Source of the DNA: a virus
Virus record (IMG/VR): IMGVR_UViG_3300036791_001907
Location: 32,001 to 96,000 of that record
Reading direction: 5' to 3' (one strand)
DNA length: 64,000 nucleotides
The translations under genes and the position numbers were made by a program. Shown here one piece after another: positions 29,290 through 42,424 of the stretch. Within the stretch, counting starts at the first letter, position 1; the number at the start of each line of letters is the position of its first letter. The notes under the pieces were generated by a model. That model saw only the letters and a list, made by a program, of their open reading frames with translations. It had not been told where the DNA came from and ran no database searches.

Positions 29290-29689
29290 ACCGACGGCCA
29301 GCGGTATATCTGGCGGTGATGGCAGCGATGGGTATGTTGCGGCGGGCCGAGCTACGTCGTGGTAGGTCCGGCAGCTGCGGTTGGGTTCGTCATGGCGAGC
29401 CGAGCATGGGTATGCTCCGTCATGGCAGCCGAGGCATGGTTTGTTGGACCATGGCGAGATGAGCTTAGCCGAGCTTCGGCGAGGCAGCCGGGGTGTGGTT
29501 CGGCGGGCTGTGCGGCGCCACGCCAGGGTTGGGCAGCTCAGATCAGGTGTGGACAGCTCTGGCCGGCAGCGCCAGGTCATGGCAGCCGAGGATAGACCTG
29601 GCCAGCCACGCGGAGCCGTCGTGAGCCGGGGCAGCATTGGCTGGTCACGTCATGACACGGCCAGTCGAGCACGGCCATGTTATGTCAGC
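29290..29689 (+). ncRNA. Guide-RNA array 1: pseudoknot repeat plus 7 pentamer-coded units (VIPR-like)
   Basis: 33-nt repeat at 29290-29322, then units such as GGCA|GCTGC|GGTTG|GGTTC|GTCAT|GGCGA|GCCGA|GCATG|GGTAT|GCTCC|GTCAT|GGCA. Confidence 0.85.
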
Positions 29690-29706
29690 ATTGAAAGGAG
29701 GTGAAT

Positions 29707-29928
29707 GTGTCAAAGATAGTTCATTTGATCTATCATCGCGTCCCCAACGATCGGATCTCAGACATGAGCGAGGTCGTGGGGGTCGTGACCACGGGCTGGC
29801 AGGATGCCGATGCGATCGTGGATCAGCTCAACGCGCGGGACCCATCCGGATTCGGCTGGCAGCGCGACTACTGGAAAAAGGAGGTTGATGTCATCACCAA
29901 GGATGATGTTCCGCGTCGCACTCCATGA
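29707..29928 (+). CDS. Small hypothetical protein between arrays
   Basis: GTG start after AAGGAGG; the pentamer periodicity stops here. Confidence 0.55.
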   Translation: MSKIVHLIYHRVPNDRISDMSEVVGVVTTGWQDADAIVDQLNARDPSGFGWQRDYWKKEVDVITKDDVPRRTP

Positions 29929-29940
29929 CAGGAGACAGCG

Positions 29941-30207
29941 ATGATCTGTCCGGAATGCGGGCATTCCAACCCGGTGATCGCCGCCGAGTGTCTCAAGTGC
30001 CGGTGCCGGTTCCTGGAACACGGTTGTTTTTCCGAGCAGTATCAGCACCCGCTCGTCGGCAAGCGAATCCAGGTCAATACCAGGACCGGCTGCATGGCCG
30101 AAGGGGTCGTGGAGCGGGTGGTGTCTTCACGTTTCGGCCTGCTCGCCTGCCTGGAAGGCGAAAACGGCAGGGCCTGGGCCGTGAACCAATGCACGCCGGT
30201 CACCTGA
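29941..30207 (+). CDS. Small Zn-ribbon protein between arrays
   Basis: 'CPECG...CLKC'; RBS AGGAG. Confidence 0.6.
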   Translation: MICPECGHSNPVIAAECLKCRCRFLEHGCFSEQYQHPLVGKRIQVNTRTGCMAEGVVERVVSSRFGLLACLEGENGRAWAVNQCTPVT

Positions 30208-30219
30208 CCGGCGTCATGG

Positions 30220-30629
30220 ACCGATGGCCGGCGGTATATCCGGCGGTGGTGGCTAGCCCTGGCGACATCAGCAATGGTCGCGCGAGCACTGCCGTGGCGC
30301 GTTCAGGCAGTACAGGCGGGGTGATGCGGGCAACGGCAGGGCCGGGTCCGTCCGGCGATGTCATGCCACGGTATGGCAGCTCAGGTGAGTTCAGATCGGC
30401 CATGCGCGGGCTGGCTGCGGTGACCAGAGGTGGGTCGAGCCGTGGCGAGGCAGCGTAGCCATGGAAGGGTCGGGTCGGTTGAGCTGCGGCGAGCCCAGCT
30501 GACGCAGGGCTGGCCGCGGCAGCAAAGAACCGATGGCCAGCGGTATATCTGGCGGTGACGGGAAGCATCGGCAGCGACGGAATGGCAGGGCAAGTTGCGT
30601 CTTGTTCCGGCCAGCCAAGTCATGGCTGC
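30220..30629 (+). ncRNA. Guide-RNA arrays 2-3: two pseudoknot repeats, 5 units; the last unit matches the downstream RAMP gene
   Basis: Repeats at 30220-30252 and 30529-30561; GGCA-delimited pentamer tracts. Confidence 0.85.
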
Positions 30630-30754
30630 GTCGTATTGCCGATCACTACGAGGACGATCCGCCTGCGCGGTGGATCGGAACACGTACTGAACACCCTACA
30701 GTTGCAGGGCCGCGGGACGCGCGGCCCGTCTCACTGGCGACAAAGGATGATCCA

Positions 30755-31666
30755 ATGCCAGCCAAGAAAGGTCCGGCCAAGGGGACAGTCCCGGTCAACA
30801 TCCCCCAGCCACAGATCCTCGACTTCGGGATCGGACTCATCGGCGTGACGCCGACGATCTCGAACGCATTCCCGCAGAAGATCCGTGAGAAGCTCGTGGC
30901 TGATCACATGCACATGCCTGAGGCCCTCATCCCCCACGAGGCCAAGGACCCGTGCGCCAACTTCAGCGCGTGCATCCACTACGTCAAGTCCAAGGACGGT
31001 GGGGTCAACTTCGCCATGCCCGGCTCCTCGTTCAAGGGGGCCATGGTCGCGGCGTGCCGGATGACCAACAAGAAGTTGGACATGGCCAGTGCCAAGCAGT
31101 TCTTCCAGGTGATCCCGTTCCGGGTCCAGATGTACGGCGACGAGCCGATCATGTGCGAGCACCGGGTCCGCAACGACAACGGCGGCGTCGACATCCGGCA
31201 CCGGGCCATGTACTGCCGTTGGTCGGTGATCCTGCCGATCCGCTACCACGCGGGGTCGATCTCCAAGGAGTCCCTGATCTACCTGGCGGAGCTGGCCGGC
31301 TTCGGCTGTGGCATCGGTGACTGGCGGATCGCGGCGCCCAAGAGCCCCAACGGGCAGATGGGCGCCTTCCGCGTGGCCCGCGAGGGCGAGATCGTCGGCC
31401 CGGCGTACTCCAAGTGGTGCGCCAAGAACCCGTTCGACTGGGACGAGTTCGAGCAGTACGGCATCGTCCCGCCCGCGCGGGTCGAGTACTACCGCAAGGC
31501 CGCCGAGATGGTTCGCGGCCTGCCGCCCGAGCAGCGGGGCACGCCCAAGAAGGGCAAGAGCCGGAAGGCTGTGCCCACCGCTGCGGCCGCCGCGGCGATC
31601 ATCAACGGCGTCCAGCCCGTCGACGGCCTTGAGCCGCCCGATGACGGCTACGTGCCGCAGCAGTAA
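30755..31666 (+). CDS. vipr: Stand-alone RAMP/Cas7-like RRM protein; putative RNA-guided effector (Vipr-like)
   Basis: 303 aa from ATG 30755 (RBS AAAGGA). First strand 'IGLIGVTP', RAMP helix motif 'MPGSSFKGAM', C-terminal G-rich loop 'AGFGCGIGDWR...GQMGAFRV'. No other cas genes in the window; flanked by the arrays. Confidence 0.8.
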   Translation: MPAKKGPAKGTVPVNIPQPQILDFGIGLIGVTPTISNAFPQKIREKLVADHMHMPEALIPHEAKDPCANFSACIHYVKSKDGGVNFAMPGSSFKGAMVAACRMTNKKLDMASAKQFFQVIPFRVQMYGDEPIMCEHRVRNDNGGVDIRHRAMYCRWSVILPIRYHAGSISKESLIYLAELAGFGCGIGDWRIAAPKSPNGQMGAFRVAREGEIVGPAYSKWCAKNPFDWDEFEQYGIVPPARVEYYRKAAEMVRGLPPEQRGTPKKGKSRKAVPTAAAAAAIINGVQPVDGLEPPDDGYVPQQ

Positions 31667-31741
31667 CCACTTCGTGCAGGAGGACGACCGGGGGCCAGGA
31701 TGGCCCCATCTTTCCCGCAACCCTAGCAGCAAGGATCGAAC

Positions 31742-32275
31742 ATGCCATCGGGTGTCAAGAAGAAGTCATCAGCGCCGGCGCCGGCGCTCAAGTACGAGTT
31801 CCGGGCCTGCTTCCGGAGCCCGCTCGATCCCAACGTCGTCGCGGCGCGGCTCGAATGGCTCAGAACCAGACTGAGCCGGGACCCGGAGGGTCAGGACGTC
31901 CTGGAAGACGCCCGGCCCGTCGGCTCGCCGTTGCATGATCACTTCGACTGGAATGACTACGAGGCCGGCGAGAAGCATCGGCTCGGCCAGGCCACGGATC
32001 TGATCAACGCCATCCGGGTCACCGTTTACGTGGTGGCGAAGCCCAAGGGGCGGGTCAAGCAGCTGCTGCCGGCCTATGTCCGGCTGAAGAACCCCGCCGG
32101 TCGGCGCACCTTCGTCGCAGCGACCATCGCGACGGCAACGCCCCGGCGCGCAGAGACGCTGGCGGAGACCATCATTCGGTATGCACACATGGCGACTCGC
32201 GATCGCGCGCTCGGGCTCACCGAGCTGGATCCGCTGTTCGACGTGATTGATAAGTTGAAGAAGCGGTACGGCTGA
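31742..32275 (+). CDS. Accessory protein of the RAMP locus
   Basis: 177 aa; 'ARPVGSPLHDHFDWND.EAGEKHRL.QATDLINAI' is a phage hypothetical motif I recall next to such RAMP-like genes. Followed within 10 nt by a pseudoknot repeat. Confidence 0.7.
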   Translation: MPSGVKKKSSAPAPALKYEFRACFRSPLDPNVVAARLEWLRTRLSRDPEGQDVLEDARPVGSPLHDHFDWNDYEAGEKHRLGQATDLINAIRVTVYVVAKPKGRVKQLLPAYVRLKNPAGRRTFVAATIATATPRRAETLAETIIRYAHMATRDRALGLTELDPLFDVIDKLKKRYG

Positions 32276-32283
32276 TGCAGCAG

Positions 32284-33923
32284 ACCGACGGTCGGCGGTA
32301 TATCCGGTGGTGACGGGAAGGCGGCAGAGATCCGGCTTCGTTCGCTCCGGCGTGCGACGCTGGGGCCCGGCAGCCAAGGACCGGCGTGGCAAGCCGCGTT
32401 CTGGCTTGCAGCGTCTAGGTTCGGCCGCAGCGGAGGGCCAGGCCGGGGTAGTGTTCGGCTCCGCAGGTCGAGGCTTGTCCCGGTTCGGCAGCTCGGGTGC
32501 GTCGTGCTGCGAATAGGCATCGTGAGGCTGGCTTCGGCAGCGTCAGGCAGCGGCGGAGGGCCTTGTCCGGGTGTGGCATTCGGCGGCTTGGCGTGCCCAG
32601 GTGAGCCGAGGCCGTACAGGTTAGGCGGGATGCGCCCGGCACTGCAATGGCCTGCTCCGGCTGGCCGGGCAGTAAAGAACCGACGGCCAGCGGTATATCT
32701 GGCGGTGACGGCAGTTCAGGAGCGGATGGGACGGCCCAGGCAGGGCTTGTTACGGCCCGCCGGGACTCGTTTCGGCGCCGCCGTATTGGTCTGGCTTCAC
32801 ATGCCGTGGCGACGTGAGCCGCGGTCAGCACAGGAGCGGCAGCGATGGTTCGTCTAGTCTACACAAGGCAGGCCCAGGCAGCCGGAGGTATGCCCAGCAG
32901 GGCCATGGCCGTACAGGACAGCAGGGGTAGGTAAAGCACGGGCAAGCCGTGCCGGGTCCCGGCAGCGAAGCCGAGTTCCGGTGTGGTGCGCCGTGGTGGC
33001 GTCCGTCACGGCGGGCCATGTCGCGGCTAGTCAAGTCGCGGCAGCAAAAAACCTATGGCCACAGGTATATGTGGTGGTGATGGCAGGCAGGGCAAGCCCT
33101 GTCACGTCGCGGTGCGGCATGTCCCGGCAGCGTAGGCTTGGTCAGATACGCGAAGTCCTGGTACGCCGCGGCCGGCACAGGTTAGCTGCGGCCAGGCAGC
33201 ATAGGCTCGTCCCAGCAAAGGCAGGTCGCGACAGGGCTGGCCGCGGTTCGGCAGCATTGGCTGGGAAAGCCCAGCCCAGGTTCGCCGCGCCACGCAGGGC
33301 TTCGGCGGGGCGGGGCAGTCAAGGATCGGCATGGCGTGTCTAGCCACGGTCCGTCATGGCGAGTCGTGCTGCGGCAGCGGCGGAGAGCCGAGCCGTGGTG
33401 GCAACTGGTGGGCCAAGCTACGTTGTGGCGACGCCGGATAGGTATGGCATGCCCCGGACTGCCATGGCGAGTCATGGCGGGCCATGGCGAGCCGTGGCCG
33501 CGAAGGAGTGGCCGCCCGGCGTTCGTCCGGCGTTGGTTGGTCTAGGTAGGGACGCGTCAGCCGGGGCAGTCATGGTTTGGCGCGGCTTGCCTGGTCGTGC
33601 CACGGCAAGCGATGCCAGGGATGGGCAGCAAAAAACCCATGGTCACGGGTATATGTGACGGTGATGGTGCGGCAGCTCGGCCCTGCCATGATGGGGCATG
33701 TCGAGCCGCGGCCAGCAGCGCAATGGTAGCGCTGGTGTTCCCAAGCTTGGCCTGGGTAAGTCAAGCGCTGGCCAGCCGGGGCAGCGAAGGTGAGGCTAGA
33801 TCTATCGAGCCTAGCGCTGTCATGTGCTGGTGAGCCGGGGTGAGCCTCGGTACGGTATCGCCGCTCTGGCGGCGTTAGTCGTGACATCGAAAGCTGTGGT
33901 ATGCCGAGTCGAGGTCAGACAGC
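32284..33923 (+). ncRNA. Guide-RNA arrays 4-7: four pseudoknot repeats, about 24 units
   Basis: Repeats at 32284, 32679, 33051 and 33635; continuous 5-nt periodicity reset by 4-nt GGCA/GGCC/CGCC delimiters. Confidence 0.9.
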
Positions 33924-33936
33924 AGAGGAGGTGTGA

Positions 33937-34152
33937 ATGATCGGACCCAAGTGCGAGTGCCGAAAGCCGACCTTTCCGTCTGAAGACGAACAGTCCTGGC
34001 TGTGCATGAACCCGGAGTGTGCGGGCTTCCAGCAGGTCTACTGCGAGTTGACGCCGGCAGACCTGGCGCTCATCGCCAAGCTGAAGGCGCTGGCCAATGG
34101 CCACTGGCAGCGTGTTGCAAAAACCCGAAAACTCCGCGGTACCAGGAAGTGA
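33937..34152 (+). CDS. Small Zn-finger protein inserted in the array
   Basis: RBS GAGGAGG; 'CEC...CMNPEC'; lacks pentamer periodicity. Confidence 0.6.
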   Translation: MIGPKCECRKPTFPSEDEQSWLCMNPECAGFQQVYCELTPADLALIAKLKALANGHWQRVAKTRKLRGTRK

Positions 34153-34157
34153 TGAAC

Positions 34158-35835
34158 GGTTCGGCAGCCGCGGTGAGGTGCGACCGGGTTCGTCCAGCGA
34201 TGGCGGACCTTGGTGTGGCATCACAGCAGTAAACCTATGGCCACAGGTATAAGTGGCGGTGATGGAATGGCAGCATCGGACGGGCTCGGACGGGCCATGA
34301 CGGGCCGGGTTAGCTGTGCCGCGTCAAGGCAGTACTGGCTAGGTTTTTCAGGGCATGCTCTGGTGCGCCTGGTCACGGCCGTCTAGGTGAGGAGTCGCGT
34401 GCAGCGGCTTGCCACGGCCAGTTCTGTCGAGGCAAGCCGAGGCCGTCAAGGTGCGGCCAGGCAAGTAATGCAGGGATCGGGCTGGCTATGGTCCGGCCGC
34501 AATGGCAAGGTTAGTTGCGGCTGGTACCGGCGGGGCGAGCCCTGCTGTGGTATGGCCGTAACGGTAGTCCGCGGAGCGCCATGGACGGCCCCGCTCAGGC
34601 TGGCCAAGGTCGGCCGAGGCAGTCTTGCAAGGGATCGTCCAGCCTGGTTGTGCCATGGCCAGGCAGGGGAGCAGAGGTGTGTTCTGGCACCCTGTGATCT
34701 GGCCGGCCAAGTCACGGCAAGGCCGGGCAGCAGTAAACCCATGGTCGCGGGTATATGCGACGGTGATGGAAGGGCAGCCGTGGACAGCAGGGTTATGATG
34801 CGCTGCGCAAGGGCTGGTCCTGGCAGGCCAAGGATCGGCAGGAGAGCACAGGTCCGGTCTGCATAGTAGTGGCGAGACCTACCATGTCGAGCCGGGTTTC
34901 GGCAGCAATGCGAAGGTGAGCCTTGCCGGGGCGGCCGTAGCTGTGGCAGTGTAGTCGAGTCGTGGCAAGCCTAGTCCGGCATAGTTGGGCTCTGGTCCGG
35001 TCCGGCAGCAGAAGTGTGTCTTGGTCCGCCGCGTCGCGACGCGGTGGGATCCGGCAGTAATGGTGCGGCTAGTCATGGCGCCGCGAGCCGCGCTGTGTCA
35101 TGTCATGATCTGGCTAGGCCGGACAGCAAAAAACCGATGGCCAGCGGTATATCTGGTGGTGACGGGAAGCATCGGCAGCGACGGCAAGCCGTGGTGTGGT
35201 ATGCCCGGCTCCGCCAAGCTACGGCAGCAGTGGGCAGGCTGGGCAGGTTTTGCTCCGTCGTGTCGAGTGTTGGTAAGGCAGCCATGGTGTGGCCCGGCGC
35301 GTCATGTCGCGTCGTCCTTTGCGCCGGCATGGCGTGGCCGCTGTGGCAAGACACCCTTAGTCATGATGGGGCCGGGCGGGCACCTGTTTGCTGCGCCGAG
35401 TCGTGGCAGTGACGCAGTGGTGTGTTGTGCCCCGGCCTGCCCCGGCGAGTCCTGTCATCGTGGGCAGCGCTGAGGCAGCAAAAAACCCATGGCCACGGGT
35501 ATATGTGGCGGTGATGGACAGCCCCGCGCTGGCCGGCTTTGGTCAGCCATGCAGAGCTGCGGCAGCAGAGGTGAGGCGTGACCAGCACAGCCGGGGTACG
35601 GTTCGCTGTGCCCTGGTTAGGCAGGTGGGTCATGGTTCGCGATGGCGCGTTGAGCCTTGCCATGGTGAGGCAGCAATGGATCGGCGGGCTGTGGCACGGC
35701 AAGCCTGGGTCGGATCCGCTGCGGCAGCGGAGGTGCGGAACGCCATGGACCGGCAGGGTGGGCCAGGGTGGGCCGAGCCACGGCAGCACGGGTGTGCCGT
35801 GTCCGGCCTAGTCAAGGACGGATGAGCCGCGCACT
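34158..35835 (+). ncRNA. Guide-RNA arrays 8-11: four pseudoknot repeats, about 26 units
   Basis: Repeats at 34233, 34737, 35133 and 35485; same pentamer grammar; ends at a strong hairpin. Confidence 0.9.
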
Positions 35836-35840
35836 GTGGA

Positions 35841-35870
35841 AGGGGGCGTGGTCTTCGGGCCACGCCCCCT
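35841..35870. terminator. GC-rich hairpin with cUUCGg tetraloop closing the array
   Basis: AGGGGGCGTGGTC-TTCG-GGCCACGCCCCCT, between the + strand array and a convergent - strand gene; U-tract weak. Confidence 0.7.
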
Positions 35871-35872
35871 CC

Positions 35873-40395: not shown

Positions 40396-42321
40396 TTATG
40401 GCGTGCTGAAGTAGCCGCGCTCGGCGCGCGCATCCTCGTCGGTCCAGCCGATCTCGGCGTTGCCGGCGGCGCGCACCTGCTCCGGCGTGAGCCGGTAGCC
40501 GGCGCCGGCGGCGAAGTTGGGCCAGGCGTCGTTGGCGTGCCAGAGGGTGGCGCAGCCCAGGTTCACGGCCTGGGCGAAGTCGTCGGTGAAGCCGGTGGCG
40601 CGCTTGATCAGGTAGATGTCACCTGCATGGGTGCCCGGTCGCTTCTCGTCGACTAAGGCCAGGAAGTCCTCGATCAGGCCCGCCACGCCGTCGTACTTGA
40701 AGAACCGGATCAGCTTCAGCTTGATCGACGAGGTCACGTAGATCAGGCTGCGGGTCTTGTCCAGCGAGTGCCGCGTCCGCTGGTGCTGGGGCGTGGCCGG
40801 GTGAAAGGTCATCAGCGAGTGCGTCGCCGACCGGACATACTGAATGGGCATGATCCGGGAGATCGGCACGCCGGCCTGGGTCAGGAATGTCTCCCTGAGA
40901 ATTCCCGCCCCGGTGTAGTCATGCGCAACGAGGTCGGGCTGGAACAGCTGGAAGTAGTGGAAGATCTCCTCGGCCTCATGAATGTGTTCGTGTGGGTTCA
41001 GAAGGCGGCGGCCCCAGAGCACGTCGATCCGGCCGTCGGTGCGCAGTCCGAGCAGGGCCACCACCGTGAACGACACGCCATCTTCACCGCCGCCGCCCCA
41101 GTCGATCCCCAGCACGGTCATCCGGTAGTTGCGCAGCCGCGCCATGACTTCCGGCCGCGGGTCCAGGGGGCGGTTCTCCCAGGGCAGCTCGGCCGCTTCC
41201 TGGAGGTCGGGCAAGGTGACCAGCTGGTTGCCCGTGGCCGACGACTCTCCCAGAACTTCATTGATAAACACATGCGGCGCCGTGTTGGCGGCGCCGTCGC
41301 GCTTCAGGAGCAGCTCGGCCCACTTCTTGCGCACCGCATAGTGCAGGGGCATGATCGGCTGGGGCACGTGCAGCCCCAGCCGCTCCCACCGCCGCTCCGG
41401 GTGGCGGTGCACCCAGCGGCCGTAGCGGGGATTGATCGGCTTCCGGCAGCGATGGCAGATGGTCCCCGGGCTGGCCTCGGAGATGTCGTCGTGCAGCGGA
41501 CCGAGCATTGCCTCCAGGTGGAACTCGAGGCTGGCGATGTTCCAGGCGCCGCAGCTGAAGCAGGGGGTGAACCACTCACCCCGGCTCGACCGCATCCATT
41601 CCCCGTGAATAAAGTTGTCCAGCGTCTTGGGGGTGCCGGTGACCTGGGTGATCCCGTACTCCTTCGAGGCCGACATGGTTTCCCGGATGATCGGGATATG
41701 ATCGGGGTCCATGTCCTGCGCTTCGTCGATCCCCACCTTCCCGGCCGGAATGCCGCGGACGCGGTCGACGTCCAGCAGTGCGAATGAGAAGAACATCCGG
41801 CTGCCGTTGTGGAACGTGCGCAGGAGCACGTTGCCGGTGGTCTCGGTGGAGACCCAGAGGTCACGGACCGGCGACTGCTTGATGAAGGCGCCTACATATT
41901 CCGTGGAGAACCGGCGGATCTGCTCGTAGCGGGGGGTCACAAACAGGGTCGAGAAGTGGGGGATCGCATTGGCCAGGGCCACGCCGTGGCTGGCCATCGA
42001 CGTCGACTTCGAGACCTGCCGCCCGGTGATCATCACCACATTGGTGGGCATCCGCACCCGGAAGAGCGGACTGAACGGGAAGTAGTCGTGGAGGCTGTAG
42101 GGCTTACCGTTCAGGTTGAACAGCAGCGGCAGGAGCGGCTCGAGCGTCTGGACCGAGCCCAGTTCGCAGAGCTTGCGGACCGAGATGATCCGGTCGACGT
42201 CCGAGATCGCGCGGCCTTCCTGCTCGGCCCGTTCCAGGTCGGCCAGGATCGCGCCGGTCTCCTTGAGCCGGCGCTCGGCGAGCAACTGATCCTTGCCTGG
42301 TGTCTTGAGCGCAACGGACAT
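40396..42321 (-). CDS. terL: Terminase large subunit (GpA-like)
   Basis: Walker A 'GRQVSKST', Walker B 'IDEAQD', 'GTPKT' coupling motif, CxxC...CxxC insert, nuclease 'LGIDWGGG', terminal 'DDFAQA'. Confidence 0.88.
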   Translation of the reverse strand: MSVALKTPGKDQLLAERRLKETGAILADLERAEQEGRAISDVDRIISVRKLCELGSVQTLEPLLPLLFNLNGKPYSLHDYFPFSPLFRVRMPTNVVMITGRQVSKSTSMASHGVALANAIPHFSTLFVTPRYEQIRRFSTEYVGAFIKQSPVRDLWVSTETTGNVLLRTFHNGSRMFFSFALLDVDRVRGIPAGKVGIDEAQDMDPDHIPIIRETMSASKEYGITQVTGTPKTLDNFIHGEWMRSSRGEWFTPCFSCGAWNIASLEFHLEAMLGPLHDDISEASPGTICHRCRKPINPRYGRWVHRHPERRWERLGLHVPQPIMPLHYAVRKKWAELLLKRDGAANTAPHVFINEVLGESSATGNQLVTLPDLQEAAELPWENRPLDPRPEVMARLRNYRMTVLGIDWGGGGEDGVSFTVVALLGLRTDGRIDVLWGRRLLNPHEHIHEAEEIFHYFQLFQPDLVAHDYTGAGILRETFLTQAGVPISRIMPIQYVRSATHSLMTFHPATPQHQRTRHSLDKTRSLIYVTSSIKLKLIRFFKYDGVAGLIEDFLALVDEKRPGTHAGDIYLIKRATGFTDDFAQAVNLGCATLWHANDAWPNFAAGAGYRLTPEQVRAAGNAEIGWTDEDARAERGYFSTP

Positions 42322-42424
42322 CGTGTTCCTCCATGAACGGCGCTGTGCGCCCGGAGCCACGGGTCCGATCCTACAATGGCGTGTGTGGCCAATACAATGT
42401 CAGCAACCAACTTAGGAGCGATCC

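What the first reader, a model, noticed from the sequence alone, without database searches (positions are those of the whole stretch)
32546..35835. The NN dinucleotides decode as codon positions 1+2 of conserved protein motifs: a wobble-skipping recognition code
Seen: concatenating only the last two bases of each pentamer and reading each pair as a codon with a free third base yields protein-like strings, several of them canonical motifs: ADEVGLGKTVE, IVDEAHHA, AGFRVIAFVHDE, VYTP(I/M)EVA, ADAVIILYR, DEVHHG....Y. Some positions are two-fold ambiguous (D/E, H/Q, K/N, F/L, I/M) and were resolved by me. Inference: targets are read as NN-x-NN-x, so the guide ignores synonymous third-position changes and one guide can hit a whole gene family. 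All recognisable reads are sense-strand. If the array is transcribed with its + strand neighbours, guides pair with template-strand DNA rather than mRNA.
Basis: partly seen in the sequence, partly recalled or inferred. Interest (0 to 1): 0.97.

Follow-up and report, generated by a model that had tools for sequence, protein, structure and literature searches.

The report
Phage VIPR guide-RNA array, already described

Summary
Window 29.3-35.85 kb of a 161-kb, 65% GC phage contig holds at least 59 tracts of xyNNG pentamers. The fifth base is G in 94%. The tracts are separated by GCAG or GCCG and by 11 covarying hairpins.

Two guides match real genes exactly:
- The SNF2 motif I guide hits 5 viral contigs. 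These carry 4 gene lineages with 27-37% protein identity.
- The DEAH-box guide hits 3 viral contigs.
- All 8 hits are in frame with the skipped base on codon position 3.
- A shuffled control and a gap-2 control each gave 0 hits.

The other four strings gave no convincing target.

Three 2026 bioRxiv preprints describe VIPR: a Cas7-like Vipr protein, GGY/NN vrRNAs, a "1-nt skip rule" that falls on wobble positions, dsDNA targeting, and staggered arrays.

This locus is a new member of a known kind. Three points deserve mention:
- The guide repertoire is large.
- Some guides sit on universal helicase motifs.
- One guide matches 9 of 10 dinucleotides in its own vipr gene.

The parts
29312..29690 (+). 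First vrRNA tract. It holds 6 guides of 9-11 pentamers separated by GCAG, and follows the tail hairpin at about 29290-29325.
29701..30207 (+). Two small ORFs with Shine-Dalgarno sites embedded between tracts: 29701-29928, and 29941-30207 (88 aa, weak zinc-ribbon match).
30240..30625 (+). Second vrRNA tract (4 guides), a tail hairpin at about 30520-30565, then a guide at 30575-30624 whose NN string matches its own vipr gene.
30755..31666 (+). vipr gene, 303 aa, a RAMP/Cas7-like protein with the invariant G-loop GFGCGIGDWR.
31742..32275 (+). Conserved accessory gene, 177 aa, in the vap position. It is syntenic in two related phages and has no recognisable fold.
32318..33900 (+). Third vrRNA tract with about 24 guides. 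These include the DEAH-box guide (32779-32838) and the SNF2 motif I guide (33378-33432). Tail hairpins lie near 32297, 32692, 33064 and 33648.
33937..34152 (+). Small ORF (71 aa, Cys-rich) with a Shine-Dalgarno site, interrupting the array.
34160..35836 (+). Fourth vrRNA tract with about 25 guides. Tail hairpins lie near 34246, 34750, 35146 and 35498.
35840..35872 (.). GC-rich inverted repeat that closes the array. It lies between the array and the minus-strand gene downstream.
   Evidence: read directly; the consensus scan did not call it

Best explanation
This is a phage-encoded VIPR (Viral Interference Programmable Repeat) locus.

Proposed mechanism:
- The + strand is transcribed into vrRNAs made of GGY-like/NN pentamers.
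- Copies of the Cas7-like Vipr protein (30755-31666) polymerise along the RNA, one protomer per pentamer. They bury the three scaffold bases and present each NN dinucleotide.
- The presented dinucleotides pair with double-stranded DNA while skipping every third target base. In coding DNA this lines up with codon positions 1+2, so synonymous wobble changes are ignored.
- Binding silences transcription of the target.

Features of this locus:
- The guides are packed as a 'staggered' array. Units of 8-21 pentamers each start with GGCAG or GGCCG, and that first G is the last G of the previous unit.
- Blocks of about 5-8 units end in a conserved hairpin tail.
- At least two guides sit on catalytic motifs of SF2 helicases, so each can match many unrelated competitor genes.

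Shown here: the repeat anatomy, the RAMP fold and G-loop residues, tail covariation and strand, in-frame exact matches, and the controls.

Inferred from the preprints, not tested on this locus: filament formation, DNA binding, silencing and RNA processing.
For: Anatomy:
- 59 guides and 641 pentamers, with position 5 G in 94% and position 2 Y in 79%.
- GCAG (41) or GCCG (10) delimiters give units of length 4 mod 5.

Protein:
- The AlphaFold model has pLDDT 67 and pTM 0.67.
- The invariant segment C185-G-I-G-D189-W190-R191 corresponds to the published SUSP1 Vipr G-loop contacts C173, T175, D177, W178, R179, which hold G1, G2 and Y3.

Tail and strand:
- The 5-bp stem is 100% paired in 26 copies from three phages.
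- Four of its pairs show compensatory changes, and 0 of 500 shuffles reach the observed score.
- Its G·U pairs are only valid on the + strand.

Code:
- Exact 1-nt-gapped hits number 5 and 3, and all 8 are in frame in SNF2-rel_dom or ResIII/DEAD ORFs.
- The shuffled control gave 0 and the gap-2 control gave 0.
- NN composition best fits codon positions 1+2.
- One guide matches its own vipr gene at 9 of 10 dinucleotides in frame, and 0 of 3000 shuffles reach 9.

Family:
- Two related metagenomic phages have the same vipr / accessory gene / array synteny with different NN strings.
- Mycobacterium phage Donkeykong has a Vipr homologue (30% identity, E 6e-14) directly downstream of a GGC-NN array.

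Literature.
Against: - No expression, processing or binding data exist for this locus.
- Only 2 of 6 guides tested for exact matches found convincing targets.
- No genome was found on which several guides converge, so the natural targets remain unknown.
- The second scaffold base is G in only 41% of pentamers, against the published GGY.
- The protein is 303 aa rather than about 20 kDa.
- There is one tail per block of guides, not one per guide as in SUSP1.
- The Foldseek E-values are weak (1.8e-3 at best).
Confidence: 0.9

Rival explanations
1. The locus is a VIPR-type array, but the protein-motif readings are largely over-reading. Most NN strings have specific, non-motif targets in one competitor element, and the helicase motifs are incidental.
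For: - Four of six quoted strings gave no exact hit.
- The 10-dinucleotide core of 'AGFRVIAFVHDE' only hit Omp28-like proteins reading LRVIAFVQDD, with the 4 flanking dinucleotides unmatched. That is about the chance expectation.
- Most of the 59 decoded strings resemble no motif I could name.
- Published VIPRs usually converge on one satellite or prophage.
Against: - The two helicase guides match over their whole length. One matches 11 of 11 dinucleotides, the other 10 to 11 of 12. They do so in several unrelated lineages, while the controls gave 0.
- Related phages also carry guides that read like conserved motifs, and one carries paired variants of a single motif.
Confidence: 0.3
2. The guides act on RNA (mRNA or another transcript) rather than on double-stranded DNA.
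For: The closest solved structural relatives of the protein are RNA-targeting type III/VII Cas7 subunits.
Against: - The validated guides have the same sense as the mRNA, so they cannot pair with it.
- NN composition is mostly sense-like.
- Published biochemistry and cryo-EM show dsDNA binding on either strand.
Confidence: 0.04
3. The pentamers are not guides at all. They would be a protein-binding scaffold or decoy RNA, or an unusually decoded coding region, and the motif strings are coincidence.
For: No direct functional data exist for this locus. Satellite 'solo vrRNAs' that act by redirecting VIPR are known.
Against: - TAG and TGG 'codons' occur as often as any other, so NNG is not translated.
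- The exact in-frame hits and the empty controls argue against coincidence.
- A Vipr homologue with the G-loop residues lies inside the array.
Confidence: 0.02

Closest known systems
VIPR systems (Vipr + vrRNA), bioRxiv 10.64898/2026.04.26.720920, 10.64898/2026.04.26.720927 and 10.64898/2026.10.15.759431
   Same: - Phage-encoded.
- A lone RAMP/Cas7-like protein with a G-loop DWR.
- Tandem pentamers with a fixed three-base scaffold and a hypervariable NN.
- Guides of 9-16 repeats, a structured conserved tail and an adjacent accessory gene.
- Targets read as NNx, with x on the wobble base.
- No cas genes and no CRISPR array.
   Different: - The scaffold is G-[G/C/T]-Y rather than GGY.
- The protein is 303 aa with a disordered C-terminal third.
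- There are about 59 guides, against four in SUSP1.
- There is one tail per block of 5-8 guides.
- Some guides sit on superfamily-wide helicase motifs rather than on one satellite or prophage.
- One guide matches its own vipr at 9 of 10 dinucleotides, whereas the paper found no self-hit at 80% or more.
'Staggered' vrRNA arrays of VIPR (fig. S18 of the first preprint)
   Same: Successive units overlap by exactly 1 nt. Here the last G of one unit is the first G of the next GGCAG/GGCCG, which gives unit lengths of 4 mod 5.
   Different: I could read only the figure legend. I could not check whether GGCAG punctuation, the GCCG variant and the interspersed hairpins are the same as in their example.
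Mycobacterium phage Donkeykong (Cheoctovirus) gp48-gp49 and related Mycobacterium/Gordonia phages
   Same: A Vipr homologue with 30% identity over residues 26-207 (E 6e-14). It lies directly downstream of a GGC-NN pentamer array with GGCAG punctuation.
   Different: - The array is short (about 390 nt) and is annotated as a protein (gp48).
- The phage is a 59-kb temperate phage.
- It has no ACC...GGTATAT...GGT hairpin tail.
Class 1 CRISPR effector backbones (Cas7/Csm3/Cmr4 on crRNA)
   Same: - Same fold.
- One protomer per RNA repeat unit.
- A thumb that breaks pairing periodically.
   Different: - The period is 6 nt, with 5 paired and 1 flipped.
- The spacer is contiguous.
- Spacers are acquired by Cas1-Cas2.
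- The systems are cellular rather than viral.

Membership tests
VIPR | G-loop residues that hold the scaffold bases (SUSP1 C173, T175, D177, W178, R179). | tested here: met
   Invariant G182-F-G-C185-G-I-G-D189-W190-R191 across 10 homologues, compared with the text. The correspondence is by motif, not by a structural superposition on SUSP1 Vipr.
VIPR | vrRNA of tandem pentamers with a conserved GGY (or related consensus) alternating with a hypervariable NN, 9-16 repeats. | tested here: met
   59 guides of 8-21 pentamers. G1 is 94% G, the second scaffold base is G 41% / C 37% / T 17%, and Y is 79%. The NN strings of three related phages share almost nothing. The paper allows related consensus repeats.
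VIPR | 1-nt skip rule: NN strings match targets as NNx, mostly in coding DNA with x on the wobble base. | tested here: met
   - 8 exact hits for 2 guides, all in frame.
- Shuffled control 0 and gap-2 control 0.
- A 9 of 10 in-frame match to its own vipr gene, which 0 of 3000 shuffles reach.
- Composition fits codon positions 1+2.
- Four other guides had no exact hit.
VIPR | Conserved structured tail capping the repeat tract. | tested here: met
   A hairpin with 4 covarying pairs, 100% paired in 26 copies. The arrangement differs, with one tail per block of guides. The pseudoknot claimed by other notes was not tested.
VIPR | Minimal two-gene locus (vipr + vap), viral, with no cas genes or CRISPR array. 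| tested here: met
   - The contig is a virus record.
- The locus genes have PHROG hits, and the gene at 40396-42360 is a distant terminase large-subunit homologue.
- A conserved 177-189-aa gene follows vipr in three phages.
- Whether that gene belongs to vap1-6 could not be tested. It has no Pfam hit and no fold match.
VIPR | vrRNAs are expressed, processed and bound by Vipr, and the complex binds dsDNA and silences. | not testable with these tools
No wet-lab data exist.
VIPR type I-VII assignment | Position in the authors' Vipr phylogeny, plus vap family and array architecture. | not tested
Only the 'staggered' architecture could be matched.
CRISPR-Cas | Direct repeats alternating with contiguous spacers, plus cas1/cas2 or other cas genes. 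| tested here: not met
   No such repeats were found by Tandem Repeats Finder or by reading. None of the ten ORFs scanned in and around the locus has a cas Pfam family.

The most novel reading that the evidence does not exclude
This phage has pushed the wobble-skipping code to its limit. A share of its roughly 59 guides are aimed at near-universal catalytic motifs (SNF2 Walker A, DEAH box). One guide could then silence unrelated SF2 helicase genes across competitors of any GC content, and possibly host defence helicases. In addition, a guide matching its own vipr with a Ser TCG/AGY swap would serve either as autoregulation or as a weapon against near-identical phages that spares the phage itself.
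Probability: 0.2. Interest if true: 0.6.

Novelty: new member of a known kind. Interest (0 to 1): 0.35.

Why it matters
The code itself, however, has been published and structurally explained since April 2026.

What this locus adds:
- An uncultured 161-kb high-GC phage carries one of the larger vrRNA repertoires.
- Single guides perfectly match helicase genes that share under 40% identity, on contigs of 47-71% GC. This extends the published escape-proofing idea from one satellite family to whole protein superfamilies.
- A near-perfect match to its own vipr gene is a case the first paper did not see.
- A mycobacteriophage gene annotated as a protein is in fact a vrRNA array.

Tried and rejected
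- **Rfam.** The gathering-threshold scan of the whole window gave no family.
- **Pentamer as 2 nt plus a real NNG codon.** I rejected this because TAG is as frequent as other NN+G combinations.
- **Targets in the phage's own genome.** The own genome (161 kb) shows no excess of matches at any gap from 0 to 3 over shuffles, apart from the single vipr match.
- **Cross-targeting between the three related phages.** None was found at 80% or more.
- **Tail hairpin pattern in viral contigs.** 0 hits.
- **Exact scans for four further guides.** 0 hits.
- **'AGFRVIAFVHDE' as a PolA motif C.** Only a 10-dinucleotide core matched, in Omp28-like proteins and with unmatched flanks, so I treat it as chance.
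- **Convergence of other guides on the eight hit contigs.** None was seen, but only partial contigs were held.
- **This Vipr clade in 185,579 prokaryote genomes.** No relative was found.
- **Fold of the accessory protein.** The search found nothing.
- **Sigma-70 promoter and terminator scan.** It was uninformative. The tail looks terminator-like on the minus strand, but its G·U pairs fit only the + strand.
- **Host.** The terminase gene has only distant cultured relatives, so the host is unknown.
Full report
**What is in the sequence**

The region has a strong 5-nt periodicity, with identity 0.36 at lags 5, 10 and 15 against about 0.25 elsewhere. It is confined to 61.3-67.9 kb of a single 161,481-bp, 65% GC contig, which the tools treat as a virus record.

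Read in register, the tracts are pentamers xyNNG. Over 641 pentamers the fifth base is G in 94% and the second is a pyrimidine in 79%. The first is G 41%, C 37%, T 17%. The two middle bases are close to even.

Pentamers are grouped into units of 8-21. The 4-mer GCAG (41 cases) or GCCG (10 cases) separates them. Successive units therefore overlap by one G, and unit length is 4 mod 5.

Eleven copies of a roughly 45-nt element (..ACC-N-AYG-stem-NGGTATAT-stem-GGTGAYGG) divide the array into blocks of about 5-8 units.

The array runs from about 29,312 to 35,836, further upstream than the finding's coordinates. Several things interrupt it: two genes at 30755-31666 and 31742-32275, and three small ORFs with good Shine-Dalgarno sites.

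**Check of the quoted strings**

All six strings are present when NN is read as codon positions 1+2.

I first asked whether NN plus the fixed G could be a true codon. It cannot, because TAG is as frequent as other NN+G combinations.

**Is it more than chance?**

I converted guides to NNx patterns and scanned public collections for exact matches.

| Guide or control | Collection | Exact hits | Notes |
|---|---|---|---|
| SNF2 motif I guide, 22 specified bases | viral contigs | 5 contigs | 4 gene lineages, 27-37% protein identity, contig GC 47-71%, third codon bases nearly all different |
| DEAH guide, 20 specified bases | viral contigs | 3 contigs | lineages 32-48% identical; one matches 11 of 12 dinucleotides |
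| Motif I guide, dinucleotides shuffled | viral contigs | 0 | control |
| Motif I guide, gap of 2 | viral contigs | 0 | control |

All eight hits are in frame, with the skipped base on codon position 3. They lie in ORFs of 370-962 aa that Pfam calls SNF2-related or ResIII/DEAD helicases.

An unbiased check supports the same reading. The composition of all 641 NN fits "sense strand, codon positions 1+2" better than the other five frame/strand models trained on this phage's own genes. The same holds for the guides of two related phages.

The picture has limits. Four further guides gave no exact hit. The 10-dinucleotide core of "AGFRVIAFVHDE" matched only Omp28-like proteins reading LRVIAFVQDD, with unmatched flanks, and I regard that as chance. 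So two of the six readings are validated. The rest are unproven.

**What it is**

A literature search found that this system is published. The relevant papers are:
- A cryo-EM companion paper (10.64898/2026.04.26.720927).
- A phage-satellite competition study (10.64898/2026.10.15.759431).

They describe VIPR as follows:
- A small phage-encoded RAMP protein, Vipr, polymerises on vrRNAs made of 9-16 YNNGG repeats.
- It hides the GGY bases and presents the NN dinucleotides.
- The NN dinucleotides pair with dsDNA under a "1-nt skip rule".
- The skipped base overwhelmingly falls on the wobble position.
- The authors argue that this blocks escape by synonymous mutation. They show invariant read positions across 119 satellite recombinases.
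- They also describe "staggered arrays" in which vrRNAs overlap by 1 nt, and vrRNAs that target rival vipr genes.

**Membership tests on this locus**

*The tail.* The tail hairpin is fully paired in 26 copies from three phages, with four covarying pairs. Its G·U pairs are legitimate only on the + strand. This fixes the direction of transcription, and so the "sense" reading of the guides.

*The accessory gene.* A conserved 177-189-aa gene follows vipr in three phages, but its fold is unrecognised.

*Relatives.* Related phages keep the scaffold, delimiters and tail but carry almost entirely different NN strings. Cultured relatives exist. Mycobacterium phage Donkeykong gp49 is 30% identical, and the "gene" gp48 directly upstream of it is a GGC-NN array.

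**How it most likely works here**

Transcription of the + strand gives long precursors. These are cut at or near the GGCAG/GGCCG junctions. Each unit is coated by Vipr and binds matching DNA on the strand complementary to its NN string. For sense-like guides that is the template strand, which blocks transcription.

The anatomy, fold, strand and matches are shown here. Processing, filament formation and silencing are inferred from the preprints.

**What differs from the described systems**

- The scaffold is looser (G-B-Y).
- The protein is larger.
- There are about 59 guides.
- There is one tail per block of guides.
- Some guides sit on catalytic motifs shared by whole helicase superfamilies.

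The phage itself encodes no GLGKT or VDEAHH helicase. It shows no self-match at 80% or more, with one exception. The guide at 30575-30624 reads T-I-S-N-A-F-P-Q-K-I, exactly the peptide of its own Vipr at codons 34-43. It matches 9 of 10 dinucleotides in frame, and the single mismatch is a Ser AG/TCG swap. None of 3000 shuffles reaches that score. The match is not conserved in the two relatives.

**Verdict**

It is, however, a rediscovery of a code published in 2026. The locus is a new, unusually large member of the VIPR family with staggered architecture. Its natural targets and host remain unknown.

Noticed in passing
window 30575-30624 versus 30854-30883: A guide just upstream of vipr matches codons 34-43 of its own vipr gene (TISNAFPQKI) at 9 of 10 dinucleotides, in frame and on the sense strand. 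The one mismatch is the Ser codon family (guide AG, gene TCG). None of 3000 shuffles reaches 9. The match is not conserved in the two related phages.
   Followed up: yes
L017:2444-2830 (Mycobacterium phage Donkeykong NC_051648.1, gp48): A CDS annotated 'hypothetical protein' is a GGC-NN pentamer array with GGCAG punctuation. It lies directly upstream of the Vipr homologue gp49, so it is probably a mis-annotated vrRNA array.
   Followed up: partly
window 29701-29928, 29941-30207, 33937-34152: Three small ORFs with strong Shine-Dalgarno sites lie inside the array. Two are Cys-rich and zinc-ribbon-like (CPxC...CxxC). Their function is unknown, and Pfam gives only a weak match.
   Followed up: partly
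window 32423, 32610, 32907, 33432, 34377-34554, 35117, 35336: About one unit in six is separated by GCCG instead of GCAG. In the two relatives almost all delimiters are GCAG.
   Followed up: partly
L011:13108-13162 and L011:13779-13833: A related phage carries two guides that differ at 2 of 11 dinucleotides ([HQ][DE]F[RK]T[LV]V[IM]DTL), as if they cover two variants of one target motif. L009 and L011 also share a 7-dinucleotide core (Y-R-[DE]-[IM]-[HQ]-[IM]-T).
   Followed up: no
window 33635-33659 and 35485-35509, minus strand: On the minus strand two tail copies score as intrinsic terminators (hairpin plus T-run). The A-run is not present in all copies, and the G·U pairs favour the + strand.
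   Followed up: partly
window 35840-35872: A GC-rich perfect inverted repeat (GGGGGCGTGG...CCACGCCCCC) closes the array, ahead of the converging minus-strand genes.
   Followed up: no
Genome contigs: This Vipr clade has no relative in 185,579 prokaryote species genomes. Its homologues are all on metagenomic contigs, the longest 43 and 212 kb, and more distantly in actinobacteriophages. The host of this phage is unknown.
   Followed up: partly
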